Source: Chloroflexi bacterium HGW-Chloroflexi-3
Lineage (GTDB): Bacteria; Chloroflexota; Anaerolineae; Anaerolineales; Anaerolineaceae
Length of the DNA stretch: 64,000 nucleotides
Direction of reading: 5' to 3'
Assembly (NCBI GenBank): GCA_002842045.1
Contig: PHBX01000010.1
Location: forward strand, 6,267 to 70,266
Shown here: in pieces, positions 10,333 to 45,345 of the stretch
Numbering within the stretch: position 1 is the first letter of the stretch
Layout: each line of letters opens with the position of its first letter
Program-made: the position numbers and the translations under genes
Notes under the pieces: model-generated
The model's database searches: none
What the model was told of the DNA's origin: nothing
What the model saw: the letters and a program-made list of their open reading frames with translations, nothing else

Positions 10333-11976
10333 ATGATTAAAATAATTCAAACAAACCATGACCTATCACCTAAGAATCCATTTGACCAGCTTCCCTGGCA
10401 TGGCAGCCAGGAGCAACTGACCAATCATCCTGCGAAAATATCCGCGCTTATTAATGAATTTGAAAAACCTCTTTGGGTTGTGAACACATCCGCTCAGGTA
10501 TTTCTAACAGATCAGGATGGATTTTCAGCAGCAGGATCTGAGAATCTTCTTCAGGCGGAACGGTGGGCATATGTACCTCCCACGCCGATTGAATCCTTCG
10601 GTGACCCAGCTTTCATGCAAACCTATGGCATCCGTTATCCTTATTATGCTGGTGCAATGGCGAATGGAATTTCCTCGGTTGAAATGGTAGTGGCATTGGG
10701 GAAGGCAGGATTGATGGGGTCATTTGGATCCGCTGGATTACCACCAACCAGAATTGAAGCTGCCATTCATGCCATTCAACAAGCGTTACCGGATGGACCC
10801 TTTGCAATCAACCTAATTAACAGTCCGAATGAGCCTAATTTAGAAAGAAATCTGGCAGAGATGTACATCGGGTCAGGCGTGAAGGTGATTGAAGCGTCTG
10901 CCTACATGGATCTGACCTATGCTTTGGTCCATTTTCGTGTAGCCGGACTCTCACAAGCAAGTGATGGCAGCGTATTAATTGGCAATAAAATCATTGCCAA
11001 GATATCTCGTAAGGAAGTCGCGCGGAAATTTATGCTGCCAGCACCGGAAGACCTGCTCAAGCAATTGCTTGCGGATGGAAAGATTACAGAGGAACAGGCT
11101 GTGCTGGCACGCCAGGTACCCATGGCGGATGATCTCACCGTTGAAGCAGACTCAGGTGGTCATACAGATAATCGTCCGCTGGTGGGTCTGATCCCAACCA
11201 TGCTGGCAATTCGGGATGAAGTGCAGGCGAAAATGAATTATCCGCAACCGATTCGCATAGGCGCTGGTGGTGGCATCAGTACTCCAGCAGCCGTATTGGC
11301 AGCCTTTATGATGGGGGCAGCGTATGTCGTTACTGGATCAATTAATCAAGCCTGTGTTGAATCAGGCGCATCATTGCACACACGGAACTTGCTCGCACAA
11401 GCTGACATGGCAGATGTGATCATGGCACCTGCTGCCGATATGTTTGAGATGGGTGTGCGAGTGCAGGTATTGAAACGTGGTACCATGTTCGCCATGCGGG
11501 CCTCACGTTTGTATGAGTTATATTCTCGCTATAATGCTGTAGAAGAAATACCGAGTGCGGATCGGGAAAAGATTGAAAAAACAATTTTCCGACGCAATCT
11601 GGATGAAGTCTGGGAAGAAACCCAGGCATTCTTTCGCGAGCGTGATCAAAAGAACCTCGACCTCGCCTTAAAAGATCCGCATCATAAGCTGGCGTTGATC
11701 TTCCGTTGGTATCTGGGACTATCCTCGCGCTGGTCGGTGGTAGGAGAGCCTGGCAGGGAGATGGATTATCAAATCTGGTGTGGTCCAGCGATGGGAACTT
11801 TTAATCAATGGGTTAAGGACAGCGTTCTGGAACCGGTGGAAAACCGCAAGGTGGTGGATGTCGCCATGCAGATTCTGAATGGGGCTGCGTATCTGGCACG
11901 TGTGCGGAGTTTATCCAATCAGGGCATCACGCTGGCAAGCGAACTGCAGACATACTATCCACAACGTTTATTGTAA
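10333..11976 (+). CDS. pfaD: PfaD-family enoyl reductase (2-nitropropane-dioxygenase-like, PUFA/polyketide synthase trans-ER)
   Basis: 547 aa with the typical PfaD layout. The N-terminal extension is followed by a TIM-barrel FMN domain (YPYYAGAMANGISS, EADSGGHTDNRP, GAGGGISTP). Confidence 0.85.
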   Translation: MIKIIQTNHDLSPKNPFDQLPWHGSQEQLTNHPAKISALINEFEKPLWVVNTSAQVFLTDQDGFSAAGSENLLQAERWAYVPPTPIESFGDPAFMQTYGIRYPYYAGAMANGISSVEMVVALGKAGLMGSFGSAGLPPTRIEAAIHAIQQALPDGPFAINLINSPNEPNLERNLAEMYIGSGVKVIEASAYMDLTYALVHFRVAGLSQASDGSVLIGNKIIAKISRKEVARKFMLPAPEDLLKQLLADGKITEEQAVLARQVPMADDLTVEADSGGHTDNRPLVGLIPTMLAIRDEVQAKMNYPQPIRIGAGGGISTPAAVLAAFMMGAAYVVTGSINQACVESGASLHTRNLLAQADMADVIMAPAADMFEMGVRVQVLKRGTMFAMRASRLYELYSRYNAVEEIPSADREKIEKTIFRRNLDEVWEETQAFFRERDQKNLDLALKDPHHKLALIFRWYLGLSSRWSVVGEPGREMDYQIWCGPAMGTFNQWVKDSVLEPVENRKVVDVAMQILNGAAYLARVRSLSNQGITLASELQTYYPQRLL

Positions 11977-11993
11977 GCATCAATGTCGGATCA

Positions 11994-12731
11994 TCACAGA
12001 ATTTGTTGGATTCCCCTTGAAGAAAAGTCAATTTCCTGATGATTGTGTTTGATTGCCAGAGTCACCAGGGAATGATTTAATTTACGCCAAAATAATTTTA
12101 GATTTTTACATTCTGCGGGACATTGCAGTATTTTTATTGGTTGCCAATCTTCATAGGTTTTCAATGGAGGAAGATTGAAAGCAATCTGGCGGGTGTCAAT
12201 GCGTAGACCAATTTGCAGTGCTTTAACAATGGCTTCTCGACCACTCCATAAGAGGGAAGCTGCCAGCGCCTGTTCTTTGATGGAGAGGGCCAATATTGAT
12301 TTGGCTTCCGGCTTGGTGAAATAATCCTCCACAAAACCACGAGATTTGGCTTCAATCTCTTCCAGATCGATCCCGATCGTAATATCAGGATCGAAACAGA
12401 AAGCTGCAACCACATTCTCTCCGCGGTGACTGATCGATAATGATCCCTCGAGACGCTGATCATTCCACATCACAAAGGGAGCACCGCTGACTTCATTATG
12501 GATCGAGAGTTCCTGAAATGGTAGGGTGTCAGAACCGGTTAACCGGTTGCTTAGAAGTTTCTTGGTAGTCCAACGCCCTGATATCCATTCCTGTTGACGT
12601 TTTGGAAAGCGAAATTGCCGGTATCGATTTATTTCCTGCGGGGATAACCAATCCAAATCCTCAGGAATAGAATCAAACTTTTTTATGCACCAAAATACAG
12701 GGTAATCCGATTTCATGGTAGAGTGGGGCAC
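11994..12731 (-). CDS. Sfp-type 4'-phosphopantetheinyl transferase (PfaE-like)
   Basis: 245 aa with Sfp-family motifs (SISHRGENVV, GIDLEEI, WSGREAIVKA). It sits directly downstream of the megasynthase on the same strand. Confidence 0.8.
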   Translation of the reverse strand: MPHSTMKSDYPVFWCIKKFDSIPEDLDWLSPQEINRYRQFRFPKRQQEWISGRWTTKKLLSNRLTGSDTLPFQELSIHNEVSGAPFVMWNDQRLEGSLSISHRGENVVAAFCFDPDITIGIDLEEIEAKSRGFVEDYFTKPEAKSILALSIKEQALAASLLWSGREAIVKALQIGLRIDTRQIAFNLPPLKTYEDWQPIKILQCPAECKNLKLFWRKLNHSLVTLAIKHNHQEIDFSSRGIQQIL

Positions 12732-12763
12732 AGACCATTAATCTGGTCTATGCCCCAAAATAA

Positions 12764-15700
12764 TTATTTCATCAAAGTCTCAATAGGTGTGAGCAATTCC
12801 TGCTCGACACTGTAAGGCATTGGTGAGGTACGATACTTTTCAATTTCCAGATAGACCTGACCTTTGCTATCAACCACACGGGCATCAAAATATTGTTGCC
12901 CATCGCTGGAGGTGACGGGTTGCACTTCGGCATAGATCGGCAATCCATTAACCTTGTTCTCGTACAACCGCAATGCACCAATTGATTTTGGCAGGCTGAG
13001 GGTTCCAGCGTTTCCGATGTCCCAAACACCAGCGGTTTGTAAACACAATTCGACCAAAATTGGAATGCTAATCATAGTATTTTCTTTCTGAGACAGAGGT
13101 GGAATCTGGCGATTCAGTTTGCCTAAAACCACATCTCCATTTCTTTGCACTCCTTCTAAAACCTGGAAAGCTGGACCGTGGAAATATAGTTTGTAGATGT
13201 CATTTGCCTGCAGTGTATAGGCACCATTCCAATGCGGTGCCTTTCCTTCGGTTTTCACCTGAGGTAGATTGGCAGGCACCAGATACACCTGACCTGAGAA
13301 ATGCAGGAGATGATCTGTGCGTTGGTGTGCGCGTGCAAGATCAGACTCAAGGGTTACGTAAGCCACCAGTCCTGCTTCTTCCCGAACCACCTGTGCTTTC
13401 CAGGTGATCCGACGAGCTTCATCACGGTAAAATTTGAAGGGGGTCATAAACTGGATATTCGATAGTCTTTCAACCCGAAATCCACTTTTAGAAGATCCGA
13501 TTCTGGAAGCAATATGTTGAGCAGCAATCGAAAATCCTTCGATGCCCATGACACCAGGTAAGAGGGGCACACCATTCAGGCTATGATCTTTAAGGAACGC
13601 TTCCTGGTTGGGATCCAATTCAGCTTCCAGCAATATGCCATCCTGAAGGCTGACACCACTGACGCGGCTGAGCATTACATGAATCGGTTGACCACTGGTG
13701 AGAGCAATGTTTGCTTTTTCAATGTCCAGACCGCCATTAGGTTCCTTTTGGGTTTCTAACAATCCCAGTGAACCAGCAAGAACCACTTCACCTCGTGATC
13801 CAGCTTCTAATTCCTGCCGGACACAACCAGCAGCCTGATCTGGATGGATCATTTCAATCCCGGCTCGTTTCATTAATTCCGGTATATGACCACGGCTTGC
13901 CATACCAACTTCAGCCCAGGCACCCCAATCGATGGTCACAACCTGAATTTCGGGACACTCATGACGGAAAGCGGATGTAAGCCGGCACAGCAGATCATTA
14001 GCTGCGCTGTAATCGGTTTGCCCGGCGTTTCCAAAACGTCCTGCAACAGAGCTGAAATTAACGATTGCTTTTGGCAATTGTTTTGCATTTTCGAGTGCTT
14101 TGAAGAGGTTGAAGAAACCAGTCGCTTTCACATTGATAATTTGCCTGAATTCCTCTGCGCTCTTTGAGTCAAGTTTGCGGCTTTTTTCCACACCGGCAGC
14201 GTGGACCAAAACATCCACCCGACCCTCTTTCTCGATAATTTGCTTTACGATTTCGTTCACAGTGTCTTGATCACTGACATCACAGGGAAGATAAGTTGCC
14301 TGTCCTCCGGATTTGTATATCGCATCCATGGTTTTTAATGTAGCTGCAGCGCGTTCCAGTCCGGCGATCTCCTGATTGATGATGGCTGGGGTAGCTTTTT
14401 GACCGGATTTGGATAACCGTTGCAAGATCGTAAACTTGAGCTGTTCGGGATCTTTGACCAATAATTCCAATTCAGGATGATCTTTTTCAGGCAATTGGGT
14501 GCGTGCCAGTAGATAGAAATGTCCCTGCGTGTGCTGAGCCAGATCTTCCACGATGGGAGCGGTGATACCACCAGTGCCACCACTTACGAGGAAAACTGCG
14601 CCTTGTGAGATTGGATTTGTTTGTGCTATGTCAATTTCTGAATCCTGTAATACCAATGTGAAACGTTGTTCCTCTTCCCAGCCCACTTCCATAACAGCCG
14701 GATCAAAGAGTGTTTCTTCTACCAACTTATTTGCCAGGCTGGCGGGTTTTTCCTTACTTGAAAAATCGACCACTTTTACAAAAACGTCATGACGTTCGCG
14801 CGCGATGGCTTTGGCGAAGCCAATAGCCGCCCCGGATAAAGGATTGTCGGCGCCATTGGCAGATAAACCATGCAGACCGTCCATGCGGGTTGCTACAACC
14901 AGAAATTTGATCTCAGGTAATTGTCTGATGGCTGCTACCAGATTGTAAAATTTGGATTCCAATGTGCTGTGCCATTCCTCAACATCCATTTTTGTTATCA
15001 GGGTTTCCTTGTTTAAGGTGGCCAAAAAGTACAATCCATCAATAGAGCCTGATTCTGCCCATCGTTTGATTTGGTTGATTAATTCTTCCTGGTTGGAGGA
15101 TTGAATTGACAAAACTTCGACCTGATTGCCTGTTAGTTTCTTTTCCAGGGCTGGTGCAAATTTACCACTGTCTTTGATAACAACCACCCTGGAACCCTGT
15201 TCCAATACCATTCCTGTAGGTGTGCATAATTCAATACGGGGACGTAAAACTGCAACCGGTACCCGCCGTCGGATGTTGGCGGTTTCTTTAGATTCGATCA
15301 AATTATCAGGCTGATCTGCGAGTTTCTCTTCCACGGGCTCAACAGATTTTTGCTGCGCCTGGGCATCCAATACAAACTGAACAACTTTTTGCAGAGTATT
15401 GTAGTCTGAAAGGCGTAAATCCTCACGCCGTGGGATGCCAAAATTCTCGCGAATACTGGCAAATAATTCAGCCTGCTTGACGGTATCAATACCCAGGTCC
15501 GCTTCCAGATCGAGCTCCATATCCAGCATTTCTACCGGGTAACCTGTTTTTTCACTGACTTTTTCGAGCACCACACGGGTTACTTCATCATTTTGAGGAG
15601 CGCTTGACGGGGCTTCTTCAGAAACCTGTATGGGTTGTGGCACTGGTTTAATTTCAGGTGTTTTTACCTCAGGGATGACTTTTACCTGCGGAGTTACTGG

Positions 15701-18700
15701 TGCAGGAGCATCACTCGCCCAGCCTTGAGGTCCCTGACCAAATTGCCAGTTGGAAACCATCGGTTTTATCTTGGGAGCACCTTCATGTTTGACACGCAAG
15801 TTATGCTGGACAACTTCCAATTCTGGTTGTTGATAACCGGACACAGAAGCCAGCCATTGTTGATATTGTCCCTGATTGACGCGTTCACCTACACCAGAAA
15901 CTTTTCTGATCAAAGTCATGGCGATTTGTGAACCAAAACCCGCCCCCAGGCGTAGTGAGAATTGCACCGGGTAATTACCACCTTTGGAAAGATTGAGATC
16001 CCCCAGTTCAGGATCAGGTTCAAAGTCATTGTCATAATGCGCGATGGGAGGAACCATTCCAAATTCCAGCGCTTTGACAGCCATCACATCCTCCACGCCC
16101 ACACCCATAGTATGACCTGTGAAGCCTTTCGTATTGGCGATGATGACTTTGTTAGCCTGATCTCCAAAGGTTTTCCGCAGCGCGTGAATTTCAGCAGCAG
16201 CACTTCCACCACGAGCCGGGGTGTAGGTCTCATGGGAGACGAATACGGTTCGGGCAGCGATTTCATGTCGGTTGATACCAAAGCGTTGTTCTGCCTGGGA
16301 AATCACGCGCTGCATGACTTCACTGACATGGGGAACATCCAGACGGGTGCCATGGAAGGCTGAATTGGCAATCTGGCTGGAGAGCAGCTCACAGATGCCA
16401 CGCATGCCACGTTCACGCACTGCGTCTTCGGCTTCCACCACCAGGGCGGCAGCACCCATCCCCATAATCATGCCATTACGGCGACGATCGAAGGGTAAAG
16501 CTGCCTGTCGTACATTTCCTTCGGTGGTTGCGGCTCCACTTGCCATCAAACCAGTACCGACCCAGTTGACCAGATTTCCACTGGTGACATCATCACCAGC
16601 AATAACGATCACTCTACGGCAGCGTCCGGCTCGAATCCAATCTTCAGCAATCGCGACCGCATGCGTGGTGGTGGCACAAGCTGCATTGACATACGTATTG
16701 GGTCCACGAGCACCGATGTGTTCGGCAAATTGGGAATGACCCATTGCCAGAACACGAAAGACAAAATGACGGTGGAAGTGGTAGTCGTTGGCTTGCAGTT
16801 GGGATTCCAATTGTTCCAATTTGTTTTGGAGTGTCTCGGACACCTTGCCATTGCTGCCATTCAACATCTGGATAATATCCAATAATTGTTGTTTTTGCGA
16901 CAGTAAATTCTGGAAATTGTAGTAATGATCGGCTTCTTCCGACATACGTTCCAGACCTGGGAAAGCTGATCCGAAGATGACTCCGGTTTCATCCTGCATG
17001 GCTTCTGGTAACATCCAGCGATTGGGTAGCAGGGTGCCTTTGCTGGTGGTACGATAATTCATTACCAAAGGAATCCCGGCATCCCGTAAGGCATCAATCC
17101 CGGCGGCGATCGCCAGTTGTGTACTGATATCGGTGGCATCCACACGATCTTCAGGTATGCCAAACTCATTGGTGGGATCAAAACCGCCACGCTGTCCGGC
17201 TAATTTAACGGTTGCATCCAGGTCGTCAATATCGACCATCATCGCGCCAGCTTCATGTTTAACCAGGCGGGTTACGCGTTTATCGAGCATATTCTCGCGT
17301 GTTTTTTGTGGAAAAGACTCAATTAACACTTCACCTTTGAGCATTCTTTGGACATTATCTTCAGCAAATACCAGACCATTCTTGCCAGGTAATCCCAGAC
17401 CAGCGCCACTGATGACGACTGACCCTGTGGGTGGAACACGACCGTCTATGATGGCTGGTTGAGGGACTGTAACATTTTCCGGTGGTTTGACAGATGGTAC
17501 CTGAACTCTCTCAGCAATGGCAGGTAAACCAGCGGCGAATAAAGCACACAGTGCTTCATTAAAGCTTGGTAATGCTCCTTTACGCGGGTGATTGGTTGCC
17601 AGCAGTGTTACTTCAGATTTGTCTTTGAAGATATCGCTGGTGAGGGCATTCAATACACGTTTCGGACCAACTTCCACAAAAATCCTGGCACCGTTTTCAT
17701 AAAGTTTTGTTGCGCCTTTGATGAATTGTACCGGGGAGGCTACCTGATCAGCCAGTAAATTCAGGATATCTTCGCGTTTGGATGGATACCAATCTCCGGT
17801 TACATTGGCAGCGACGGGGACTTTGGGTGCTTGCAGGTCCATACGATCGATGACCTTGCGTAGTGGCTGACTGGCTGGTGCTACAATTTTAGTGTGGAAA
17901 GCATGCGAAACCGGAATTTTGACGGCCTGGAAATTGGCTGCCATGAATGCCTGGATGGCAAGATCGACACCTTTGGTGGATCCGGCGATGACTGATTGCA
18001 ATGGACTGTTGATATTCGCCAGAACGACATATTCATCAATGCTGCCAAGAATTCGTTCCACTTCCTTGAGGGGAGCCGAGACAGCTGCCATGCAGCCATT
18101 ATCCTCCATGGCAACTTTCACCATTTCGCGACCACGAGCACTGACCACTTCTAGCGCTTCATCAAATCGTAAGACGCCAGCAGCTACCAATGCTGCATAT
18201 TCACCCAGACTGTGTCCGATGACCATATCAGGTTTAAATCCGTATTTTTCCAGGAGGCGTAAAAGAGCCACGTTGGCAGTCAACACAGCTGGTTGGGTGA
18301 TGGTGGTATCTTTAAGTTTCTGTTCTGCTTCTTTTAAACTAGCTTCATCACCTTCGGCGTATATGAAATGTGTGAGGGGTTTCCCGAGTAAAGGTTCCAT
18401 GACCCGGTCTGCTTCGACAAAGACTGCATCCACCACCGGTTCAATGGCGCGTAATTCACGCAGCATATTCACGTATTGAGAACCCTGCCCGGGAAAAAGG
18501 AAAGCTATCTTGCCTGGATCCCCGCTGCCACGATAGACTCCCTGAGCGGTCATGGCCTGCCACATGGAGGGATTATCCGAGTCAAAAGCTTTTAATGCCT
18601 TTTCTGCTCGTTTGATGAATTCTTCCTGATTACCGTAATCTATCACCAGACGTTCCGGCAAAGACAGCTGATTGGGTTCTGGTAATTGAGAAGGGGGCAA

Positions 18701-20983
18701 AGATCCCTGTTGTGCCTGGGATAATGAATTTTGAAGTTTTTCTTTTAATTCGGCTGTTGTGTTAGTAGATAGAAAATGCAAACCTCTAAAATGTTCTGCT
18801 GGTGCTGGTGAAGGTGGCACGGGTTCTGATGCGACCTCAATTGAGGGGGAGATTGCTGGTTGCCCACCAGCGTTTTCTTTGAAAAAGTTGATGACTTTTG
18901 CCAGTGTGTTGTAATCTGATAAGCGCAGATCTTCCCGGCGCGGGACGTTATAATGACCACGAATGGCGGCAAATAGTTCGGCCTGCTTGACCGTATCGAC
19001 ACCCAGATCGGCTTCCAGATCCAGTTCCAGATCGAGCATTTCCGCAGGATAACCAGTTTTCTCAGCCACCTGTTGAATCACAAATTGGGTGATCTCCATA
19101 TCGGATGCCTTTCCGGAGGCATTATTGGTTACTTGGGTTGGCGTAGTTTGCACGGACGCTGCTGGTTGGGGAGTTTTTTCACTCTGCATGGATGCATCCG
19201 AAGAGGTTGTATCTGCTCCTGATGCGTTATCCATCACAAACCCGATTACTTTTTCAAGGGTGTTGTAGTCGGATAATCTTAAATCATCACGCCGTGGAAT
19301 TCCGAAATGTTCGCGAATAGTGCGGAATAGTTCAGCTTGTTTGACGGTATCGACGCCTAAATCGGCTTCCAGATCTAATTCCACATCCAGCATTTCAGCA
19401 GGGTAACCAGTTTTCTCGCTGACAGCAGCCAGCACAAATTCTTTGACTGCTTGATTCTCTACGCGATGGGTTGAAGTGGCTATGACAGGTTCTGAGGTGA
19501 GAACCTGATCTACTTTATTAGAAATTGTTGCTGGGATACTAAAGGTGGGTTGGCGGTCTTCATGTAAACCTGGCACGTATTCCTCCATCACCACATGGAA
19601 ATTGGTACCTCCGAACCCAAATGAACTCACAGCTGCCCGGCGAATTTCACCGACGGGTTTTTCCCAGGGCTGTGCCTGAGTATTAACAAAGAAAGGCATA
19701 TGTTCAAAGTCGATGTTTGGGTTGGGTTTTTGAAAGTTAACCGAAGGGGGTAACATTTTATGATCCAAAGCAAAGGCTACTTTCGCCAGACCAGCAGCCC
19801 CGGCTGCGCTTTTAAGGTGACCAATATTGGATTTTACAGATCCTAAAGCGATAGTTCGTACAGGGATACCGAACTTCCCGAAGATTTCATTCAGGCTGTT
19901 GACCTCTACCACATCCCCAACACGGGTCGAGGTACCATGGCCTTCGATTAATCCAGCGCTGGCAGGCGTGACACCGGCATTTTTCCAGGCACGTTCGATG
20001 GCTCTTTGTTGTCCTAAGGGATTCGGTGCTGTAATGCCCTTGCCTTTGCCATCGGAACTGGAACCAATTCCGCGGATGACAGCATAGATCTTATCACCTT
20101 CACGTTCGGCATCGGTCAGGCGTTTGAGTATAAAGATGGCAGTGCCTTCACCCATCACGAAGCCATTGGCACCATCTGCATAAGGACGGGATCCATCCGC
20201 GCTGAGGGCGCCAATTTTAGAGAATTTGACATAGGATTCCGGACCCATATTGCGATCCACTCCACCTGTCAATACGGTATCAAACTGGTAATCATTCAGT
20301 CCTTGAATAGCTGCCTGGATTGCGGCTAGTGAAGATGCACAGGCAGCATCCGTGACGAAATTCGGTCCGCTGAAATTGAACACGTTGGCAATTCTGCCAG
20401 CAATAATGTTGGATAATTCACCGGACATGGTGTCTTCAGTGATATCCGGAATTAGTTGGCGAATATTATTCTGAAAACCATCAATCAACTGCTGTTGAAC
20501 TGCAGCAGGCAGGTTTCTAAAAGTATCGGATTGCTCCAATGCCTGAACATATTCAGGTAGGAGAATTCGCATGGTGGATCGATAATGACGTTCACCTGCG
20601 TTTGAATTCCCGATTATCACAGCCATTCTTTCCGGGTCTATCGTCCGCTCTGGATAACCATAATCACTTAGCGCTTGGTGGCTGGCTGCGATACCCCATT
20701 GTTGTGTACAATCCATTTGAGCTAAAACGGTAGGTGGAATGGGAATACGCATCTTCATGGGATTAAATTCAAAATTTGTTACCCAGGAGCCAATTTTGCT
20801 GTAGGTCTTGTCCGGTACCTTTGGGTCACTATGATAATAAAGATTGGTATCCCAACGATCTGTAGGAACATCTTTTATGGAATAATGCCCTTTGAGGATA
20901 TTTTCCCAAAAGAGCTTAGCGTTAGGAGCATCTGGCATGATCGCTCCGATCCCCACGATTGCTACTGGTTTTTGTTCTGACAT
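12764..20983 (-). CDS. type I PUFA-synthase-like polyketide/secondary-lipid megasynthase, KS-ACP-ACP-AT-KS-ACP-KR-DH
   Basis: 2739-aa ORF. Domain motifs were read directly from the translation and are listed in the sub-features below. No TE/R release domain and no FabA-type DH are seen. Confidence 0.9.
   Translation of the reverse strand: [2739 protein letters not shown]
12767..13681 (-). other. PKS-type (hot-dog) dehydratase domain, C-terminal
   Basis: [20 protein letters not shown] matches the HxxxGxxxxP motif (His codon 13583-13585). A second hot-dog half follows (..[13 protein letters not shown]..). Confidence 0.7.
13889..14602 (-). other. ketoreductase catalytic subdomain (SDR)
   Basis: [11 protein letters not shown] Rossmann motif, HAAGV, [19 protein letters not shown]. 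Confidence 0.8.
15362..15586 (-). other. carrier (ACP-like) domain 3, Thr at the Ser position
   Basis: [24 protein letters not shown]. Confidence 0.75.
15899..17425 (-). other. KS2 domain (Cys retained, so not a CLF)
   Basis: [11 protein letters not shown] (Cys codon 16676-16678), SHETYTP and TGHTMG supply the two His residues. A coiled-coil-like insertion sits in the N-terminal half. Confidence 0.7.
17609..18511 (-). other. acyltransferase (malonyl-CoA:ACP transacylase-like) domain
   Basis: [20 protein letters not shown] (18203-18217), SHAFHT. Confidence 0.85.
18872..19096 (-). other. carrier (ACP-like) domain 2, Thr at the Ser position
   Basis: [24 protein letters not shown] (Thr codon 18992-18994). 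Near-duplicate of domain 1. Confidence 0.75.
19226..19456 (-). other. carrier (ACP-like) domain 1, Thr at the Ser position
   Basis: [24 protein letters not shown]. The Thr codon is at 19346-19348, where the DSL-motif Ser is expected. Confidence 0.75.
19580..20971 (-). other. KS1 domain of megasynthase
   Basis: VAIVGIG.., active-site DAACASS (Cys codon 20339-20341), [23 protein letters not shown]. Confidence 0.85.
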
Positions 20984-21735: not shown

Positions 21736-23463
21736 ATGAACCCACCGACCTGGATTGGACAGACGTTAAGTGGCCGATATAAAATTGAAGCGTTATTAGG
21801 GCAGGGTGGTATGTCTGCCGTGTACAAGGCTTATGATCCCAACCTGAAACGCGTGGTGGCAGTGAAGCTGGTGCATTCGCATCTGAGCTCAGACCAGGAA
21901 TTCGTTAAACGTTTCGAAGAAGAAGCATCAGTGGTGGCTTCCTTGCGGCATCCCAATATTGTCCAGGTTTATGATTTCAACACTGATCAGGGGATTAATT
22001 ACATGATAATGGAATTTGTCCCGGGCGAGACCTTACAGGAACGCCTCAAACGACTAAACGAAAGTAATCGACGGATGTCCCTGGAAGAAGCCTTAAAGAT
22101 AACGATTAATATCTGTGATGCCTTAAGTTACGCCCACAAACGCGGTATGGTACACCGCGATATCAAGCCTGCCAATATTATGCTGGATGTCAACAATCAA
22201 GCCATCCTGATGGATTTTGGTATCGTGAAGATCCTGGGTGGGTCCTCCCATACTGTTACCGGAGCCGTGATGGGGACGGCGCGATACATGCCACCTGAGG
22301 TTGTGCGTTCGGAACCTGCTGACCAGCGTTCGGATATCTATGCCCTGGGGATTACCCTGTATGAAATGTTGAGTGGTAAGCCGCCTTTCGAAGCAAATTC
22401 AGTCATGACCGTCATGATGATGCATCTCAATGATCCGGTTCCCGATATTAGACCATTAAGGACCGATCTGGATCCACAATTGGTACCGGTATTAATGAAA
22501 GTGTTGGCCAAAGATCGCAACCAGCGCTATTCTTCCACGGATGAATTTTCTGCAGCGTTAAAAAGAATCCAGCACGGATTGGAGAACAATATTGGAATAG
22601 CACATGAAAATCAACCCACAGTTTTTCCTGCTTCCAAACCTGTTCCCTCCCAACCGGTTACGACACCAGAAAACAGAGTTTCACAAATCGGTCAAGGCAA
22701 TCCACCCAGCCGACCAAATCCTGGTTCGGTTCCCATGGGATATCAAAATACAGTTTACGATTCTTCCATCCGAACATCAGTTTCAGGATCCAATCCAGCC
22801 CTTCCTGTCCATCCTGTGTCCAATTTGACTTCAGAACCACAAAAGCAGAAATCAAAGCGTTGGATGTGGATCGTCGGGATAGGTGGTGCTGCATTCCTTC
22901 TCCTTGTTGGTGTAATTGTCATAGGTGGCATTCTTCTGTCCCAGATGAGGGACAGGCGGACTGCTGATGTTAAAGAGACTGAAAGTGTAGCTCTTGTGAT
23001 GCAAACCGAAAGTGCAAATATTTTCTCTGACAATCTGGTGGAAACCACCAACACGATTGCGCCTACCCGGAATCTACCAACGGCGACATTTCAGCCCTCT
23101 GCCACGTTTGTTGCTACCAAGGTACCCACCACACCAACGCCAACATACCCACCACTGTATGTGAAGATCAATGAAATCACATTCACCTCATCCAATCAAT
23201 ACTCGGTGGCATATGAAACTTTTGGATATACCGAAGTCTTGCCAGGTCAACACATCCATTTCTTCTTTGATACGGTTAAGCCGGAAAACGCCGGTATGCC
23301 AGGAACAGGTCCCTGGATTTTATACGGTGGGCCACGACCTTTCACCGGGTATAGTGTCTATCAAAAACCAAGAGATGCCACACAGATGTGCGCATTGGTT
23401 GCCAATGCCAATCATTCGATCATTTTAGAGAGCGGAAATTGTGTGGACTTGCCGGTAAATTAG
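21736..23463 (+). CDS. Hanks-type Ser/Thr protein kinase with TM segment and extracellular C-terminal domain
   Basis: 575 aa with canonical motifs: GQGGMSAVYKA, VAVK, HRDIKPANIML, DFGI, YMPPE. A Pro/Ser-rich linker and a TM segment (WMWIVGIGGAAFLLLVGVIVIGGILL) precede a ~130-aa C-terminal domain. Confidence 0.9.
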   Translation: MNPPTWIGQTLSGRYKIEALLGQGGMSAVYKAYDPNLKRVVAVKLVHSHLSSDQEFVKRFEEEASVVASLRHPNIVQVYDFNTDQGINYMIMEFVPGETLQERLKRLNESNRRMSLEEALKITINICDALSYAHKRGMVHRDIKPANIMLDVNNQAILMDFGIVKILGGSSHTVTGAVMGTARYMPPEVVRSEPADQRSDIYALGITLYEMLSGKPPFEANSVMTVMMMHLNDPVPDIRPLRTDLDPQLVPVLMKVLAKDRNQRYSSTDEFSAALKRIQHGLENNIGIAHENQPTVFPASKPVPSQPVTTPENRVSQIGQGNPPSRPNPGSVPMGYQNTVYDSSIRTSVSGSNPALPVHPVSNLTSEPQKQKSKRWMWIVGIGGAAFLLLVGVIVIGGILLSQMRDRRTADVKETESVALVMQTESANIFSDNLVETTNTIAPTRNLPTATFQPSATFVATKVPTTPTPTYPPLYVKINEITFTSSNQYSVAYETFGYTEVLPGQHIHFFFDTVKPENAGMPGTGPWILYGGPRPFTGYSVYQKPRDATQMCALVANANHSIILESGNCVDLPVN

Positions 23464-23480
23464 TTTTCTGAATAATATTT

Positions 23481-23496
23481 CTGGTCAGCTGACCAG
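23481..23496 (+). terminator. perfect 16-bp palindrome after the kinase gene
   Basis: CTGGTCAGCTGACCAG, starting 18 nt after the stop. Only a weak T-rich tail follows. Confidence 0.25.
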
Positions 23497-23694
23497 TTAA
23501 TAAATTACACTGGTGGATATGATGGACGATTAATCCATATATTATCATAATGGTTACTGCCTATCAATCTAATTCAGTAAAGTGGTTAATAAATTTAACA
23601 GAAATCTGATTCGTTCTCACGTTATAATTTAAATCTGTAGCAATTAAATTCATTAAAGTTTTTTTCAAAAAACACCTGATTATGTAAGGAATCC

Positions 23695-24972
23695 ATGGAA
23701 AAATTCCCCCCTCCCAATTATGTGCAGATAGCTTCTAATCTACCAGGCTTTGAGATTTATGCTCCTAAAGAAGAGAAGGAAGATGTTGTTCCTCTTAAGG
23801 AATTCAAGTGCCCCCAATGTGGAGCTGTAACCGCCTATTCCATTCTCCAAGCTGGATTGTCGTGTGAGCATTGTGGATATCAAGAGCGGGTGCAGGTATC
23901 GGTAGTGGGGCGAGCTGCTGATTCATTCGAATTCAGTCTGGATAACCTGGCTGTAGCAGCCCATGGTTGGGGTGATGACCGCAACGATTTACGTTGTTTA
24001 AGCTGTGGGGCGGAAATTACAGTGCCTGCTGATAGTATGGCGACGACCTGTGCTTTTTGTGGCTCGAATAAGGTGGTACAGGGTTCCGCCAATAAGGATC
24101 AACTGCGCCCGAAATTCTTGGTCCCCTTCAAAATTGATCCTCAGAAATGTCAACAAATCGCCAGAGAGTGGCTGGGCAGCAGTTGGATGGTACCCAAGGA
24201 ATTGAAACATTTTGCTGCCATGGATTCGTTCACAGCCATATACCTGCCATATTGGACATTCCATGCCATTACAAACGCTTCCTGGAAGGCAGAAGTGGGG
24301 CACCGTGTCAGTGAAAGTTATTATGATGCCAGTTCGAAGTCCTGGAAAACGCGTACAAAAATTGTCTGGCGTTGGGAATCTGGTAATGCCGGGCTGGACA
24401 TTGATGATTTGTTGGTAGCTGGCACCGGGCGGGTGAGTGCTCGACATCTGGGAAATGTAGATAATTTTAATCTTTCCGATATAGTGGCTTACGCTCCGGT
24501 CTTTTTGGCTGGCTTGCAAGCCAAAGGGTACGACAGACCGTTGGAGCCAGCCTGGGAAATAGCCCGGGAAGTGATGCGGGAGAAGACAAAAGATGCGTGT
24601 ATGCGCCAGGCAAGCACTTCCATGGTACGGAATTTCAGCATGAAGCTCGATTTTTCGGATGAAAGCTGGCGCTATCTCTTATTGCCAGTTTATCTGGCAG
24701 CGTATCAGTTTAATGGCAAAACGTATCATGCCATTGTCAACGGACAAACGGGAGATATTTCCGGCCAGCGTCCGGTGGATTGGAAGAAGATCTGGCTGGT
24801 TGTGGCCATGATCCTTGCGCCGGGTGTTTTGGCAGGATTAGTAGGATTATTGAGCATGTCTTCTTCTTCCGATGGTCTCACCATTGGCATGATCGGATTT
24901 GTTCTTCTGGTAATTGGGTTGATCATCTCGATTGTGATCTTTGTTAAGGCAGATAAGGAGGGGAAAGCATGA
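23695..24972 (+). CDS. zinc-ribbon membrane protein of unknown function (paralog A)
   Basis: 425 aa. Two CxxC..CxxC ribbons (CPQCG..CEHCG; CLSCG..CAFCG), a ~250-aa central domain and C-terminal hydrophobic segments. Shares YLPYW/YLPMW and ..VNGQTGDISGQRP / ..[13 protein letters not shown] blocks with the next ORF. Confidence 0.6.
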   Translation: MEKFPPPNYVQIASNLPGFEIYAPKEEKEDVVPLKEFKCPQCGAVTAYSILQAGLSCEHCGYQERVQVSVVGRAADSFEFSLDNLAVAAHGWGDDRNDLRCLSCGAEITVPADSMATTCAFCGSNKVVQGSANKDQLRPKFLVPFKIDPQKCQQIAREWLGSSWMVPKELKHFAAMDSFTAIYLPYWTFHAITNASWKAEVGHRVSESYYDASSKSWKTRTKIVWRWESGNAGLDIDDLLVAGTGRVSARHLGNVDNFNLSDIVAYAPVFLAGLQAKGYDRPLEPAWEIAREVMREKTKDACMRQASTSMVRNFSMKLDFSDESWRYLLLPVYLAAYQFNGKTYHAIVNGQTGDISGQRPVDWKKIWLVVAMILAPGVLAGLVGLLSMSSSSDGLTIGMIGFVLLVIGLIISIVIFVKADKEGKA

Positions 24973-26093
24973 CAGAACCATTGGAACAATCGAATCCGTA
25001 TGCGCTAACACTCTCATCCCTCGGTTGGGGGCAGGGGGTAGTCTGTCTAGTTTGTCAAAATTGTGATTGGCAATTTCTGGTTGGTACAGCGAATAAACCG
25101 CAGGATTGCCCACATTGTCATACCAATCAATTGGAAAAATACCAGGATGAAGATTTCAGTAAGATGGAGGATTTCATCAAACCACCCGAATTGTATCTGC
25201 CCTTCAGTTTTCCACAGGAACAATTGAACGAAAAAATCCAAAATTTTGCTAAAAATATCCCATTTGCACCGGATGATCTTCGGCTGGACAATTTACAAAC
25301 CCGCTTACAAAAAATCTATCTACCCATGTGGCTGGTCGATAGCCATGTTTCAGCAACCTGGCAGTCTGAATGCGGATATTACTATCAGGTCAAAAGCCAT
25401 CAGGAGAAATACAGTGGTGGTCGTTGGCAGACGCAGGAAGTGATTGAGACCCGTACACGTTGGGAGCCAAGATTGGGACGGTTGGGTAGAAGTTATCAAA
25501 ATATTGCTGCGCCAGCATTGGAAGAACATCGGCGCTTGATGGGAGCGCTTGGAAATTACGAATATAAAAAAGCACAACCGGTAACACCCCAATCATTATT
25601 GCAGGATTCAGTACAACCACCGCTGGTCAATATTCCCAGTCGCGATAAGGATGATGCCTGGCCAGACACGTTACCCCGTTTTCAGGAACAGGCTATGGAG
25701 GAAAGTCGCCAGGCATGTGCCGCAAACCAGATTCGTGAATTTCGCTGGAAGCCGGAATTTTCCAATCAAAACTGGACATTGTTCCTGTTACCGATGTGGA
25801 GTAGTTATTATCTGGATGATGAGAACAAACCACAATCCATTCTGGTCAATGGTCAGAGTGGACAGATGAGTGGAACCCGACGGGCATCCATGAAAAAGGC
25901 CAAAAAAATCTCCCTGTCCATTTTTATTGCAGCTTTGATTGCTTTTGCTCTGACTGTGGTGGTTGGATTGATATCCCTTTCTGTTCAAGATTTAGCGGTG
26001 ATAGCAGGTATTGGTATTATGATTTCATTGATCATTGCCCTGGCAGCCATCTATCCAATTGTGACGGCGTGGAATGTGAATAGAGATCGGTGA
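24969..26093 (+). CDS. zinc-ribbon membrane protein of unknown function (paralog B)
   Basis: 374 aa. One ribbon (CLVCQNC..CPHCH), a homologous central domain and C-terminal TM segments. Its start overlaps the stop of paralog A by 4 nt (ATGA). Confidence 0.6.
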
Positions 26094-41666: not shown

Positions 41667-42678
41667 GTTTAACCTCCCCCAAGAGAAAGATGGGTGTTAA
41701 CAAAGTTAAGGTAAGCAGACCGTGTAAAATGGAAAATCCCGGCAACTGAACCAAGGGGTAAGGTTCATATGCGAGGACCAGATGTCCCGGTATTTTGATT
41801 ACGAAAGCCAAAATAAGCAAAAGAGCAAAGAGGCAAATCCAGGTTGAAATCTGTGACCATGCTTCTTGCACATAGGTGCTTTTATTGACTCTTTTTCCGC
41901 TGATAAAGAATAAAACAAGTAACAAAAGCAACCCTGCCAGAATCATCCAACCACCCGATAAGGGAAGTTGGGTAGATAATTCCAATATCCAGCCCAGTAA
42001 GATGAATATTAAACCCAATGGAAGCAAAGTTTTTTCAAACCAGGGGATTTTGCGATCCGATTGAGCAGTAAACCCTCTGGCGGTCATCGCTTCAGCAATC
42101 TGCATGGCTCTTTCCAATCCACCAATCAAGAGTGGAATGATTAAGGGTAGCCAATCACGCAACTTTTTGAGCTGTTGACCACGGATTGCCTGGGCTTCGC
42201 GAATTGCCTGAAACTGTTTTTGCGAGGCAGGAATGAAAGTCAGGGCGATGGTGGTGACAACAGCCACTGGATGAAACGCTTGCGGAATTAATCGTACCAG
42301 AGCATGAACCGAGACCACCTGGTTGAGGATCATGAATAATGTGAACATTCCGATCAAAATCAACCCGTTTGTTAATCCATAGATCAATGCTTCCAACGTG
42401 TAGTTACCCCCCAGCAACGGGATATTGGTGGGCAGGTTGAAGAGAATTGTCTGACCAAAGCGGGATATGAACATATTTAAAACCGTTGAGAGTACCAGCA
42501 CTGACAGTCCAAACCGCAATGTTGTTCCCATGAATTTTTTGGAAGGAGGTGTAATCCAGACCTGGAAGAGGATCAGGATCAGATCAACCAGGAGGATGAT
42601 CAGTGGATTTCTGGTTGTCGTCAGCACGACCAATCCGGAGATCAACCATGCCAGCCAGGCGTAGGTGTGAACATTCAT
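41653..42678 (-). CDS. ECF transporter transmembrane T component (EcfT/CbiQ family)
   Basis: Polytopic protein with the two Ala-Arg-Gly coupling motifs (AQAIRGQ, MTARGF). The likely start is MNVHTY.. at 42678, which avoids overlap with the upstream gene. Confidence 0.75.
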   Translation of the reverse strand: MNVHTYAWLAWLISGLVVLTTTRNPLIILLVDLILILFQVWITPPSKKFMGTTLRFGLSVLVLSTVLNMFISRFGQTILFNLPTNIPLLGGNYTLEALIYGLTNGLILIGMFTLFMILNQVVSVHALVRLIPQAFHPVAVVTTIALTFIPASQKQFQAIREAQAIRGQQLKKLRDWLPLIIPLLIGGLERAMQIAEAMTARGFTAQSDRKIPWFEKTLLPLGLIFILLGWILELSTQLPLSGGWMILAGLLLLLVLFFISGKRVNKSTYVQEAWSQISTWICLFALLLILAFVIKIPGHLVLAYEPYPLVQLPGFSILHGLLTLTLLTPIFLLGEVKHDQD

Positions 42679-42682
42679 CCCG

Positions 42683-45144: not shown

Positions 45145-45345
45145 GCATTAAAAAACCCGCCAAATGGCGGGAAGTAAACCCTTTTATAAGAGTCAACTTC
45201 CCTTTCCGCGAAGGAATGATCGAACCGAATTAAGGCAGGTATTCGGGCTTGTTCCTGTGAACTTACCGTTGCGGGACAGCGCTGGACTTTCACCAGCTTC
45301 CCCATTTGAGCACCGCGCATCCGGGCGTGAGGTGCACCTTAACCG
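45145..45345 (-). promoter_or_regulatory. cobalamin (B12) riboswitch
   Basis: The minus strand reads ..AAGGTGCACC..AAATGGGGAAGCTGGTGAAAGTCCAGCGCTGTCCCGCAACGGTAAG..AAGCCCGAATACCTGCC.. This is the conserved cobalamin aptamer core plus B12 box. A terminator hairpin and GAGGAG RBS follow, upstream of ATG 45069. Confidence 0.8.
45150..45171 (-). terminator. riboswitch expression-platform terminator
   Basis: Minus strand: CCCGCC ATTT GGCGGG followed by TTTTTT. The 5' arm overlaps an alternative GGGAAGT..ACTTCCC helix. Confidence 0.6.

What the first reader, a model, noticed from the sequence alone, without database searches (positions are those of the whole stretch)
10333..20983. PUFA-synthase-like cluster condensed into one megasynthase with atypical domain order (KS-ACP-ACP-AT-KS-ACP-KR-DH) plus PfaD and PPTase
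Seen in sequence: a 2739-aa ORF with two Cys-containing KS domains, one AT, three carrier domains in two locations, one KR and one C-terminal PKS-type DH. An Sfp-type PPTase lies immediately downstream and a convergent PfaD-type enoyl reductase follows.

Established knowledge: canonical pfa systems split these functions over several proteins. PfaA is KS-AT-ACPn-KR-DH, PfaB is an AT, and PfaC is KS-CLF-2xFabA-DH. PfaD and PfaE complete the set.

Differences here:
- the ACP pair sits between KS1 and AT
- the second KS keeps its active-site Cys, so there is no CLF
- no FabA-type isomerising dehydratase is visible
- no thioesterase or reductase release domain is visible

Inference: the product is more likely a saturated, hydroxy or keto long-chain secondary lipid than a cis-polyunsaturated acid. 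The off-loading mechanism is not encoded in the obvious way.
Basis: partly seen in the sequence, partly recalled or inferred. Interest (0 to 1): 0.7.

Follow-up and report, generated by a model that had tools for sequence, protein, structure and literature searches.

The report
Fatty-acid megasynthase with threonine carrier sites
This is a self-contained fatty-acid-type megasynthase from an Anaerolineae bacterium, belonging to a large catalogued but biochemically unstudied family, and every carrier domain in it has threonine where all studied carrier proteins have the serine that holds the phosphopantetheine arm.

Summary
The locus holds a 2739-aa ORF (12764-20983, minus strand) with the order KS1-ACP-ACP-AT-KS2-ACP-KR-DH. 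An Sfp-type PPTase lies immediately downstream and a convergent PfaD enoyl reductase follows. No FabA-type dehydratase, thioesterase or reductase release domain is present, and KS2 is not a chain-length factor.

The "atypical order" is not a one-off:
- Hundreds of homologues, mostly Anaerolineae but also Elusimicrobiota, Polyangiaceae and Asgard archaea, keep a fixed catalytic order KS1-AT-KS2-KR-DH.
- Two to five ACPs sit in any of three linker slots. The commonest plan is KS1-AT-KS2-ACP3-4-KR-DH followed by a PPTase.
- That plan matches the uncharacterised "type R secondary lipid synthase" of Shulse and Allen (2011).

All three ACPs read DLG(V/I)DTV, with Thr at the phosphopantetheine position. 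In 388 family proteins, 1247 of 1281 ACPs have Thr and 26 have Ser.

Fused ER variants and recurrent acetyl-CoA carboxylase neighbours point to bulk synthesis of saturated fatty acyl chains. This may be the housekeeping FAS, but that is untested. The product, the release step and modification of Thr are all inferred.

The parts
12764..20983 (-). Megasynthase ORF, 2739 aa: KS1-ACP-ACP-AT-KS2-ACP-KR-DH
   Evidence: ORF list. Pfam and NCBIfam scans. Scores 1024.6 bits on TIGR02813 PfaA, just above the 1010.1 cutoff. About 120 full-length homologues at 50-91% identity.
19553..20971 (-). KS1 (aa 5-477), PKS/PfaA-type ketosynthase with C215, H349 and H389
   Evidence: best PDB matches are PKS ketosynthases (7zma, E 7e-149), and it also matches 6riw ORF10. 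The catalytic residues are conserved in 213-217 of 217 family KS1 domains.
18794..19564 (-). ACP1-ACP2 cassette with Pro/Ser/Thr-rich linkers (aa ~474-730), inserted between the end of KS1 and the KS-AT linker
   Evidence: Pairwise alignment with Longilinea P0041, which has KS1 joined directly to AT, shows one clean insertion of about 255 aa.
19238..19438 (-). ACP1 (aa 516-582). Thr546 (codon 19346-19348, ACC) occupies the phosphopantetheine position.
   Evidence: PP-binding domain. Thr aligns with the Ser of PigH ACP, AcpP and SDAP. AF2 model has pLDDT 83 and helix II starts at this Thr. Fold matches ACPs at TM 0.70-0.83 normalised to the query.
18884..19084 (-). ACP2 (aa 634-700). Thr664 (codon 18992-18994, ACG).
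17573..18502 (-). AT (aa 828-1137), malonyl-type: GQGSQ, GHSLGE (S925), R950, HAFH
   Evidence: Acyl_transf_1, E 7e-46. TIGR00128 FabD, 215 bits. Motifs conserved across the family.
15749..17416 (-). KS2 (aa ~1190-1745), a divergent FabF-like ketosynthase with an intact triad (C1436, H1584, H1624) plus K1619. Its signature motif is SHETYTP. A helical hairpin is inserted at aa ~1344-1399 (16787-16954).
   Evidence: Sequence search against PDB gives FabF, E 4e-24, with the triad aligned. AF2 model has pLDDT 85 and pTM 0.89. Foldseek top hits are FabF, TM 0.80-0.84. The triad is conserved in 266-267 of 267 family KS2 domains.
15371..15574 (-). ACP3 (aa 1804-1871). Thr1834 (codon 15482-15484, ACC).
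13910..14599 (-). KR catalytic subdomain (aa 2129-2358), preceded by a structural subdomain from about aa 1960. Key residues: GGTGG, K2286, S2312, Y2325, N2329.
   Evidence: KR domain, E 1.4e-38. Residues conserved in 215-219 of 219.
12818..13678 (-). PKS-type double-hot-dog DH (aa 2436-2722): H2467xxxGxxxxP, YFHGPAF, E2645xxxQ
   Evidence: PKS_DH_N plus PS-DH. Aligns to the C-terminal DH region of the PfaA model. H2467 and Q2649 are conserved in 206 of 206.
11994..12731 (-). Sfp/AASDHPPT-type 4'-phosphopantetheinyl transferase, 32 nt downstream of the megasynthase. Motifs: GIDLE, WSGREAIVKA, LSISH.
   Evidence: ACPS, E 3e-16. Closest solved structure is human AASDHPPT 2cg5, E 4e-9. Adjacent to the megasynthase in every relative examined whose downstream flank is on the contig, or fused to it.
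10333..11976 (+). PfaD-family FMN enoyl reductase acting in trans (PfaD_N, NMO TIM barrel, helical insert)
   Evidence: TIGR02814, 652 bits. PDB 6lkc and 4yx6, E about 1e-190. Conserved next to the PPTase in eight Anaerolineae loci. Fused N-terminally in P0218.

Best explanation
**What it is.** The three genes encode a self-contained, iteratively acting fatty-acid-type synthase of the "type R secondary lipid synthase" family.

**Proposed cycle:**
1. The cognate PPTase converts the three ACP domains to their holo form. It must do so on Thr546, Thr664 and Thr1834, because no Ser is available at or near the canonical site.
2. The malonyl-type AT loads malonyl units from malonyl-CoA onto the ACPs.
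3. Two catalytically competent ketosynthases perform the decarboxylative condensations. KS1 is PKS/PfaA-like and KS2 is FabF-like. They probably divide the work by chain length or by priming versus elongation.
4. KR reduces the beta-keto group.
5. The PKS-type DH makes the trans-2-enoyl intermediate.
6. PfaD reduces it in trans.

With no FabA-type isomerase, the product should be a saturated (fully reduced) straight acyl chain.

**Release.** No release domain is encoded in the locus. Candidates are AT-mediated transfer to CoA, a lipid acyltransferase, or a thioesterase encoded elsewhere.

**Shown versus inferred.** Shown: domain identities, intact catalytic residues, Thr at the carrier site, family-wide conservation, gene linkage and gene fusions. 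Inferred: modification of Thr, iterative full reduction, the saturated product, and the release route.
For: **Complete catalytic set.**
- All domains carry intact, family-invariant active sites.
- PfaD is a close homologue of solved PfaD enzymes.
- PfaD is linked to the synthase in all eight Anaerolineae loci examined.
- PfaD is fused N-terminally to the synthase in P0218, giving ER-KS1-AT-KS2-ACP6-KR-DH. This gene fusion ties the two functionally.

**No PUFA or release machinery.**
- No FabA, TE or reductase release domain is detected.

**Linkage to malonyl-CoA supply.**
- A carboxyltransferase follows the PPTase in Elusimicrobiota locus L009.
- A biotinyl-domain gene, a carboxyltransferase and a KASIII-like gene lie upstream in Heimdallarchaeota locus L010.
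- Biotin ligase, a 1941-aa single-chain acetyl-CoA carboxylase and BioY lie downstream in L014.
- Acetyl-CoA synthetase and BioY lie beside the Anaerolinea thermolimosa gene.
- The same carboxylase link was reported for Koribacter (PMC3098273).

**Thr is a functional carrier site.**
- Thr aligns with the Ser of solved ACPs.
- It sits at the N-terminus of helix II in the model.
- It occurs in 1247 of 1281 family ACPs, with Ser in 26.
- Its codons vary synonymously among relatives: ACC, ACG, ACT and ACA.
- Ser-type proteins have Thr-type nearest neighbours.
- A conserved Ser-Thr-Ser tandem occurs within single Heimdallarchaeum proteins.
- The only other Ser in the domain (S571) is not conserved.
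Against: - No biochemical data exist for any family member in the literature I could search.
- From my own knowledge, E. coli AcpS does not modify an ACP S36T mutant. Thr modification would therefore need a suitably adapted PPTase. The catalytic motifs of the window's PPTase look ordinary.
- The Elusimicrobiota locus has no PfaD within 10 kb, so full reduction may not hold across the whole family.
- The role of the second KS is unexplained.
- No release activity is encoded nearby.
Confidence: 0.6

Rival explanations
1. The locus is a specialised secondary-lipid synthase derived from pfa. It makes a long-chain hydroxy, keto or very-long-chain lipid for a special structure such as an envelope or sheath lipid, not bulk membrane fatty acids.
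For: - KS1, the ACPs, KR and DH score best against the PfaA model.
- The family was filed among "secondary lipid synthases".
- Two KS domains could serve chain-length extension beyond C18, as in PUFA synthases.
- The Elusimicrobiota locus lacks an adjacent ER.
Against: - No tailoring genes lie nearby: no glycosyltransferase, type III PKS, thioester reductase or aminotransferase.
- The family is near-ubiquitous in Anaerolineae, including the cultured genera Anaerolinea, Longilinea and Bellilinea.
- It is repeatedly linked to acetyl-CoA carboxylase, biotin ligase and BioY. That pattern fits bulk fatty-acid supply better.
Confidence: 0.25
2. The locus is a cis-polyunsaturated fatty acid (EPA/DHA-type) synthase in compact form.
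For: - The megasynthase is just above threshold on the TIGR02813 PfaA model (1024.6 against 1010.1 bits).
- PfaD and a PPTase are present.
Against: - There is no PfaC-type KS-CLF.
- There are no FabA-type DH/isomerase domains. The only hit is 13.9 bits against a cutoff of 23.
- There is no PfaB.
- The PPTase carries the P1b' (hShxH) motif rather than the PUFA-type FNxSH.
Confidence: 0.03
3. The Thr-bearing carrier domains are not phosphopantetheinylated. They would be structural or degenerate, and the synthase would depend on a separate discrete ACP or be inactive.
For: - No case of phosphopantetheine on Thr is known to me.
- None was found in the literature searched. Five specific phrases for it gave zero occurrences.
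Against: - The motif DLG(I/V)DTVKQAE is almost invariant in 1247 ACPs from several phyla and from archaea.
- The Thr codon shows synonymous variation.
- Every catalytic domain is under equally strong conservation.
- A dedicated PPTase is always adjacent or fused.
- Ser and Thr alternate within one tandem array in Heimdallarchaeum proteins.
- No discrete ACP gene lies in any of the loci examined.
Confidence: 0.05

Closest known systems
Type R secondary lipid synthase (Shulse and Allen 2011, PLoS One 6:e20146; Koribacter, Solibacter, Elusimicrobium minutum, Roseiflexus)
   Same: - One pfaA-like gene, described as KS-MAT-CLF-ACP(3-6)-KR and followed by a PPTase gene.
- That paper's notation also omits the C-terminal DH of PfaA itself.
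- The commonest plan in the window's family is KS1-AT-KS2-ACP3-4-KR-DH plus a PPTase.
- Elusimicrobium posterum P0323 is collinear with the window protein: KS1 54%, AT 46% and KS2 48% identical.
- The PPTase carries the P1b' motif reported for types M-T.
- A link to acetyl-CoA carboxylase recurs, as reported for Koribacter.
- The product is unknown in both.
   Different: - In the window, two ACPs sit between KS1 and AT.
- A PfaD ER gene is part of the Anaerolineae cluster. It was not listed for type R and is absent within 10 kb in L009.
- The "CLF" of the published description is in fact a KS with an invariant Cys-His-His triad.
- The paper does not mention the Thr carrier site.
- Membership was not tested against the paper's own reference sequences.
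Bacterial PUFA synthase PfaABCDE (Shewanella, Moritella, Photobacterium)
   Same: - KS-AT...ACPn-KR-DH(PKS-type) on one polypeptide, as in PfaA.
- A trans-acting PfaD ER, E about 1e-190 to solved PfaD.
- A dedicated Sfp-type PPTase.
- Tandem ACPs.
   Different: - No PfaB.
- No PfaC (KS-CLF plus two FabA-type DH domains).
- A FabF-like second KS is embedded after the AT.
- ACP positions are variable.
- ACPs carry Thr. By my recollection PfaA ACPs read LGIDSIK.
- The PPTase is of the non-PUFA motif class.
Type II FAS ketosynthase FabF (KAS II)
   Same: - KS2 has the complete FabF fold (Foldseek TM 0.80-0.84).
- Its Cys-His-His-Lys aligns with FabF.
   Different: - Only 20-24% identical over the Foldseek alignments.
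- It is embedded in a megasynthase.
- It has a helical hairpin insertion of about 55 residues.
- Its motif is SHETYTP rather than HGTGT.
- It gives a weak KASIII-like Pfam signal around the active Cys.
Canonical acyl carrier proteins (AcpP, PKS and FAS ACP domains)
   Same: - Four-helix ACP fold.
- DLGxD motif at the start of helix II.
- PP-binding Pfam hits above the gathering score.
   Different: - The attachment residue is Thr in 97% of family ACPs, not the otherwise universal Ser.

Membership tests
Type R secondary lipid synthase (Shulse and Allen 2011) | A single pfaA-like gene with KS, MAT, a second KS-like domain (called CLF), tandem ACPs and KR | tested here: met
   All these domains are present. 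The family's commonest order, KS1-AT-KS2-ACP3-4-KR-DH, equals the published plan. The window's own ACP placement differs.
Type R secondary lipid synthase (Shulse and Allen 2011) | PPTase gene immediately downstream, carrying the P1a x(G/D)xP and P1b' hShxH motifs | tested here: met
   The PPTase lies 32 nt downstream. SGAP and LSISH are present in its sequence.
Type R secondary lipid synthase (Shulse and Allen 2011) | KS phylogeny groups the protein with the type R reference sequences (Koribacter, Solibacter, E. minutum, Roseiflexus) | tested here: inconclusive
   The reference sequences could not be fetched. As a proxy, proteins from the genus Elusimicrobium (P0323) and other Elusimicrobiota are collinear homologues at 46-54% identity in KS1, AT and KS2. 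No tree was built.
Pfa PUFA synthase (pfaABCDE) | PfaC-type KS-CLF plus two FabA-type dehydratase/isomerase domains | tested here: not met
   There is no CLF: KS2 has an intact triad. There is no FabA domain above threshold. No such gene lies in the flanks.
Pfa PUFA synthase (pfaABCDE) | PfaD-type FMN enoyl reductase | tested here: met
   TIGR02814, 652 bits against a cutoff of 449. PDB PfaD, E about 1e-190.
Pfa PUFA synthase (pfaABCDE) | PfaB acyltransferase, and a PfaE PPTase with the P0 and P1b (FNxSH) motifs | tested here: not met
   There is no separate AT gene. The PPTase has LSISH (P1b'), not FNxSH.
Acyl carrier protein (phosphopantetheine-dependent) | Four-helix bundle with the attachment residue at the N-terminus of helix II | tested here: met
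   AF2 model has pLDDT 83 and helix II starts at the Thr. Foldseek matches ACPs at rmsd 1.5-1.8 A.
Acyl carrier protein (phosphopantetheine-dependent) | Conserved Ser in the D-S-L/I/V motif as the phosphopantetheine acceptor | tested here: not met
   All three window ACPs have Thr, as do 1247 of 1281 family ACPs.
Acyl carrier protein (phosphopantetheine-dependent) | The domain is actually phosphopantetheinylated | not testable with these tools
   This requires mass spectrometry of ACP co-expressed with the PPTase.
Chain-length factor (KS-beta) | Loss of the active-site Cys, typically to Gln | tested here: not met
   C1436 is present and is conserved in 266 of 267 family KS2 domains.

The most novel reading that the evidence does not exclude
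An entire, very large family of FAS-like megasynthases uses O-phosphopantetheinyl-threonine instead of -serine as its carrier chemistry, installed by co-inherited PPTases. The family has at least 624 clusters at 50% identity and spans Anaerolineae, Elusimicrobiota, myxobacteria and Heimdall/Asgard archaea. In this reading the synthases are the primary, ACP-autonomous source of saturated fatty acids in lineages with reduced or absent type II FAS, which may include Asgard archaea.
Probability: 0.3. Interest if true: 0.85.

Novelty: new variant of a known kind. Interest (0 to 1): 0.68.

Why it matters
**Carrier chemistry.** Textbook carrier-protein chemistry rests on an invariant serine. A family with about 97% threonine at that position, across bacterial phyla and archaea, would add a new post-translational linkage if the Thr is modified. 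It would also imply PPTases with altered acceptor specificity. Such PPTases could serve as orthogonal tagging tools and as a way to insulate a synthase from housekeeping enzymes.

**Biology.** The family is abundant in environmental genomes and has no known product. It may be the main fatty-acid source of Anaerolineae, which are dominant in anaerobic digesters and sediments. Relatives occur in Heimdallarchaeota, which bears on how archaea close to eukaryotes could make fatty acids.

**Engineering.** ACP domains can sit in three different linkers without changing the catalytic order. This is a natural experiment in megasynthase design.

Tried and rejected
**Literature.**
Topics were Anaerolineae with PfaD or fatty-acid synthesis, secondary lipids in Chloroflexi, Thr phosphopantetheinylation under several phrasings, PKS in Heimdallarchaeota, and PKS in Elusimicrobium.
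- Only the type R catalogue entry and passing mentions were found.
- The Elusimicrobium minutum genome paper (PMC2681670) is not held.
- The JACS Au 2026 survey holds none of the five terms searched (threonine, type R, Chloroflex-, Anaerolinea-, Elusimicrob-). The mSystems 2023 survey mentions Chloroflexi only twice and never Anaerolinea in the text searched.

**Related loci.**
Type R reference genomes could therefore not be fetched.
- L008 is frameshifted, so its gene could not be read whole.

**Technical failures.**
- A MAFFT run on all domains timed out. It was replaced by single-sequence HMM alignments.
- One Pfam call exceeded the residue limit.

**Ideas considered and rejected.**
- Hidden domains in the linkers: nothing appears at E<=1.
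- A hidden FabA domain: the only hit is below threshold and lies inside the DH.
- Ser571 in the RLSDYNTL motif as an alternative attachment site: it is not conserved (S368, A154, R101).
- KS2 as a CLF or as a PfaC-like KS: FabF is closer by both sequence and fold.
- The promoter and terminator scan gave counts no higher than shuffled sequence.

- I could not test whether Anaerolineae genomes lack type II FAS genes. No tool reads whole genomes.
Full report
**1. What is there**

- a 2739-aa megasynthase, 12764..20983 on the minus strand;
- a 245-aa PPTase 32 nt downstream, 11994..12731 on the minus strand;
- a convergent 547-aa PfaD, 10333..11976 on the plus strand.

Pfam on the whole protein and on eight overlapping segments gives:

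| Domain | Residues |
|---|---|
| KS1 | 5-477 |
| ACP1 | 516-582 |
| ACP2 | 634-700 |
| AT | 828-1137 |
| KS2 | ~1190-1745 |
| ACP3 | 1804-1871 |
| KR | 2129-2358 |
| DH (PKS-type double hot-dog) | 2436-2722 |

Nothing else appears even at E<=1. The only FabA hit is 13.9 bits against a cutoff of 23, and it lies inside the DH. There is no thioesterase or reductase release domain. PfaD is a close homologue of solved PfaD enzymes (E about 1e-190; TIGR02814 652 bits). The PPTase is of the Sfp/AASDHPPT type and keeps its catalytic GIDLE and W-x-x-R-E-x-x-x-K motifs.

**2. Are the domains competent?**

All the expected catalytic residues are present:
- KS1: DAAC(215)ASS, H349GTST, NIGH389.
- AT: GQGSQ, GHS(925)LGE, R950 and HAFH, the malonyl-type signature.
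- KR: GGTGG, K2286, S2312, Y2325xxxN.
- DH: H2467xxxGxxxxP, YFHGPAF, E2645xxxQ.

KS2 is not a chain-length factor. Its C1436, H1584, K1619 and H1624 align with the FabF triad and lysine. An AlphaFold model (pLDDT 85, pTM 0.89) superposes on FabF enzymes at TM 0.80-0.84. It carries an extra helical hairpin at aa ~1344-1399. By contrast, KS1 is PKS/PfaA-like; its best PDB hits are PKS ketosynthases, E down to 7e-149.

I aligned each domain across 418 family proteins with single-sequence HMMs. Every one of these residues is essentially invariant. For example, KS2 Cys is present in 266 of 267 domains, both His in 267 of 267, and DH His in 206 of 206.

**3. It is a family, and the "atypical order" is one permutation**

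The protein has about 120 listed full-length homologues at 50-91% identity. All carry the same Pfam set. The named ones are all Chloroflexi/Anaerolineae: Anaerolinea thermolimosa, Longilinea arvoryzae and Bellilinea caldifistulae. The closest genome record is "Chloroflexi bacterium HGW-Chloroflexi-2" at 91%.

I mapped the window's domains onto 121 members:
- The catalytic order is fixed: KS1-AT-KS2-KR-DH.
- Between two and five ACPs occupy any of three linkers: KS1|AT, AT|KS2 and KS2|KR.
- The commonest plans are KS1-AT-KS2-ACP3-KR-DH (31 members) and the same with four ACPs (23 members).
- The window's plan occurs in 13 members.

Against Longilinea P0041, the window's ACP pair is a single clean insertion of about 255 aa. 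It lies between the end of KS1 and the start of the KS-AT linker.

An exhaustive HMMER search with KS2 against 1.84 billion cluster representatives found 624 representatives at E<=1e-30. Those with names are Elusimicrobiota, Polyangiaceae, and Heimdallarchaeota or other Asgard MAGs.

**4. Relation to what is known**

Shulse and Allen (2011) defined a "type R" secondary lipid synthase. It is one pfaA homologue, KS-MAT-CLF-ACP(3-6)-KR, followed by a PPTase gene. They found it in Koribacter, Solibacter, Elusimicrobium minutum and Roseiflexus, with product unknown. In Koribacter it is linked to an acetyl-CoA carboxylase gene. Their notation omits the C-terminal DH even for PfaA itself.

The family's commonest plan equals this description. 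Further support:
- Elusimicrobium posterum P0323 is collinear with the window protein, with KS1 54%, AT 46% and KS2 48% identical.
- The window PPTase has the x(G/D)xP and hShxH motifs reported for types M-T.

I therefore file the locus as a type R-like synthase, with three differences:
- The ACPs are relocated.
- PfaD belongs to the cluster. It is present in all eight Anaerolineae loci examined but absent within 10 kb in Elusimicrobiota locus L009.
- The published "CLF" is really an active KS.

I could not fetch the paper's own reference sequences, so the phylogenetic criterion is only met by proxy. The locus is not a Pfa PUFA synthase. It has no PfaB, no PfaC, no FabA-type DH, and a PPTase of the other motif class.

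**5. The unexpected feature: threonine carriers**

All three ACPs read DLG(V/I)DTVKQAELF. The evidence that Thr occupies the attachment position:
- In HMMER alignments the Thr pairs with the phosphopantetheine Ser of PigH ACP, mitochondrial SDAP and AcpP.
- An AlphaFold model of ACP1 (pLDDT 83) starts helix II exactly at this Thr.
- The model matches solved ACPs at rmsd 1.5-1.8 A.

The Thr is a family property, not a local mutation:
- 403 of 403 motifs in the first 120 homologues have Thr.
- 445 of 445 motifs in the Elusimicrobia set have Thr.
- In an HMM census of 388 proteins and 1281 ACPs, 1247 have Thr, 26 have Ser and 8 are degenerate.
- The Thr codon varies synonymously among relatives: ACC 16, ACG 9, ACT 3, ACA 2. 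The residue is therefore maintained by selection.
- The only other Ser in the domain (S571) is not conserved.

Ser and Thr appear interchangeable:
- For three of the Ser-type proteins (P0191, P0216, P0233), the nearest KS2 neighbours, at 64-69% identity, are Thr-type.
- Ca. Heimdallarchaeum proteins keep a Ser-Thr-Ser tandem within one polypeptide.

A dedicated PPTase is adjacent in every locus whose downstream flank is on the contig, and it is fused in P0162. In Heimdallarchaeota locus L010 the contig ends about 500 nt after the gene. In L014 a biotin ligase follows the synthase and no PPTase is seen within 10 kb.

The simplest reading is that Thr is the phosphopantetheine acceptor in this family. 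I found no description of such a linkage. Five specific phrases for it gave zero occurrences in the searchable library, and the type R paper never mentions Ser or Thr. To my knowledge, curated lists of protein modifications include only the serine form. This is an inference, not a demonstration.

**6. What it most likely does**

The enzyme set is exactly what an iterative, fully reducing fatty-acid cycle needs: two KS domains, a malonyl-AT, ACPs, KR, a PKS-type DH, and an ER in trans. It lacks the FabA-type isomerase that PUFA synthases use to place cis double bonds.

Two kinds of comparative evidence support fatty-acid synthesis:
- **Gene fusion.** In P0218 (4019 aa) a PfaD-type ER is fused to the N-terminus of the synthase.
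- **Gene neighbourhood.** Family members repeatedly sit next to the malonyl-CoA supply.
  - A carboxyltransferase follows the PPTase in L009.
  - A biotinyl-domain gene, a carboxyltransferase and a KASIII-like gene lie in Heimdallarchaeota locus L010.
  - Biotin ligase, a 1941-aa single-chain ACC and BioY follow the synthase in L014.
  - Acetyl-CoA synthetase and BioY lie in A. thermolimosa locus L012.

No tailoring genes typical of specialised lipids were seen. By my recollection, cultured Anaerolineae have mainly saturated straight and branched C14-C18 fatty acids. That would fit this synthase being their main FAS. I could not check whether their genomes lack type II FAS, so this remains a hypothesis, at about 35-40%.

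How the two KS domains share the work and how the chain is released are unknown. No release activity is encoded in the window.

**7. Verdict**

However, the architecture is not unique. It is a permutation within a large, previously catalogued but uncharacterised family.

What makes the locus interesting:
- the family-wide threonine at the carrier site;
- the active FabF-like second KS, mislabelled as a CLF;
- the mobile ACP cassettes;
- the links to ER fusions, acetyl-CoA carboxylase and Asgard archaea.

All functional statements await biochemistry.

Noticed in passing
window 45217-45356 (-), with ORFs 43489-45069, 42683-43492, 41653-42759 and 40077-41666 (all -): A cobalamin riboswitch (Rfam RF00174, 64.6 bits) lies upstream of a secreted prenyltransferase/SQHop-repeat-like protein. 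By eye, the genes that follow look like an ECF-type transporter (S component, EcfT, duplicated EcfA ATPase). This is probably a B12-regulated uptake operon.
   Followed up: partly
window 48016-59620 (+): A type VII/WXG100-like secretion cluster. It holds a VWA-FHA protein (48016-50349), a Gly-rich protein with no Pfam hit (50368-51375) and a degenerate Ser/Thr kinase (52934-54001). It also holds an EssC-like FtsK/SpoIIIE ATPase of 1526 aa (54020-58600) and a YukD plus double-FHA protein (58604-59620).
   Followed up: partly
window 59731-62452 (-): A KatG-type catalase-peroxidase (59731-61929) sits next to a Fur-family regulator (61985-62452). This is probably a PerR-KatG oxidative-stress pair in an otherwise anaerobic lineage.
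   Followed up: no
window 21736-26093 (+); L002 and L004: A Ser/Thr protein kinase (21736-23463) and two weakly paralogous ORFs with no significant Pfam family (23695-24972 and 24969-26093) lie divergently upstream of the megasynthase. The two ORFs are about 23% identical to each other. This arrangement is conserved in L002 and L004, where the kinase is duplicated. A Ser/Thr kinase also lies near the Elusimicrobiota synthase in L009.
   Followed up: partly
L010, L011; proteins P0156, P0162, P0191, P0221, P0276-P0289: Full-length homologues of the megasynthase occur in Heimdallarchaeota and other Asgard archaeal MAGs, including the closed Ca. Heimdallarchaeum genomes. Some have Ser-type or mixed Ser-Thr-Ser ACPs. 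One has a fused PPTase. One lies beside carboxyltransferase, biotinyl-domain and KASIII-like genes. These could be an ACP-autonomous fatty-acid source in archaea.
   Followed up: partly
L014 (protein P0218, 4019 aa): In this variant a PfaD-type ER is fused to the N-terminus and about 500 unassigned residues lie between KS1 and AT. Downstream are biotin-protein ligase, a 1941-aa single-polypeptide acetyl-CoA carboxylase (BC-BCCP-CT), BioY and a DAG-kinase-like gene. Together these look like a compact fatty-acid synthesis island.
   Followed up: partly
family-wide (P0053, P0087, P0150, P0160, P0168, P0181): In a few members, one ACP of the tandem array has lost the D-T motif altogether (for example YFGIDKT, DLGISL, DLGVKDA and DLGLDGT), while its neighbours keep it. 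These look like decayed carrier domains kept as spacers.
   Followed up: no
L008 10001-16416: The homologous gene in this Microflora Danica MAG is broken into several overlapping ORFs. This is most likely frameshift errors in the assembly rather than a pseudogene.
   Followed up: no
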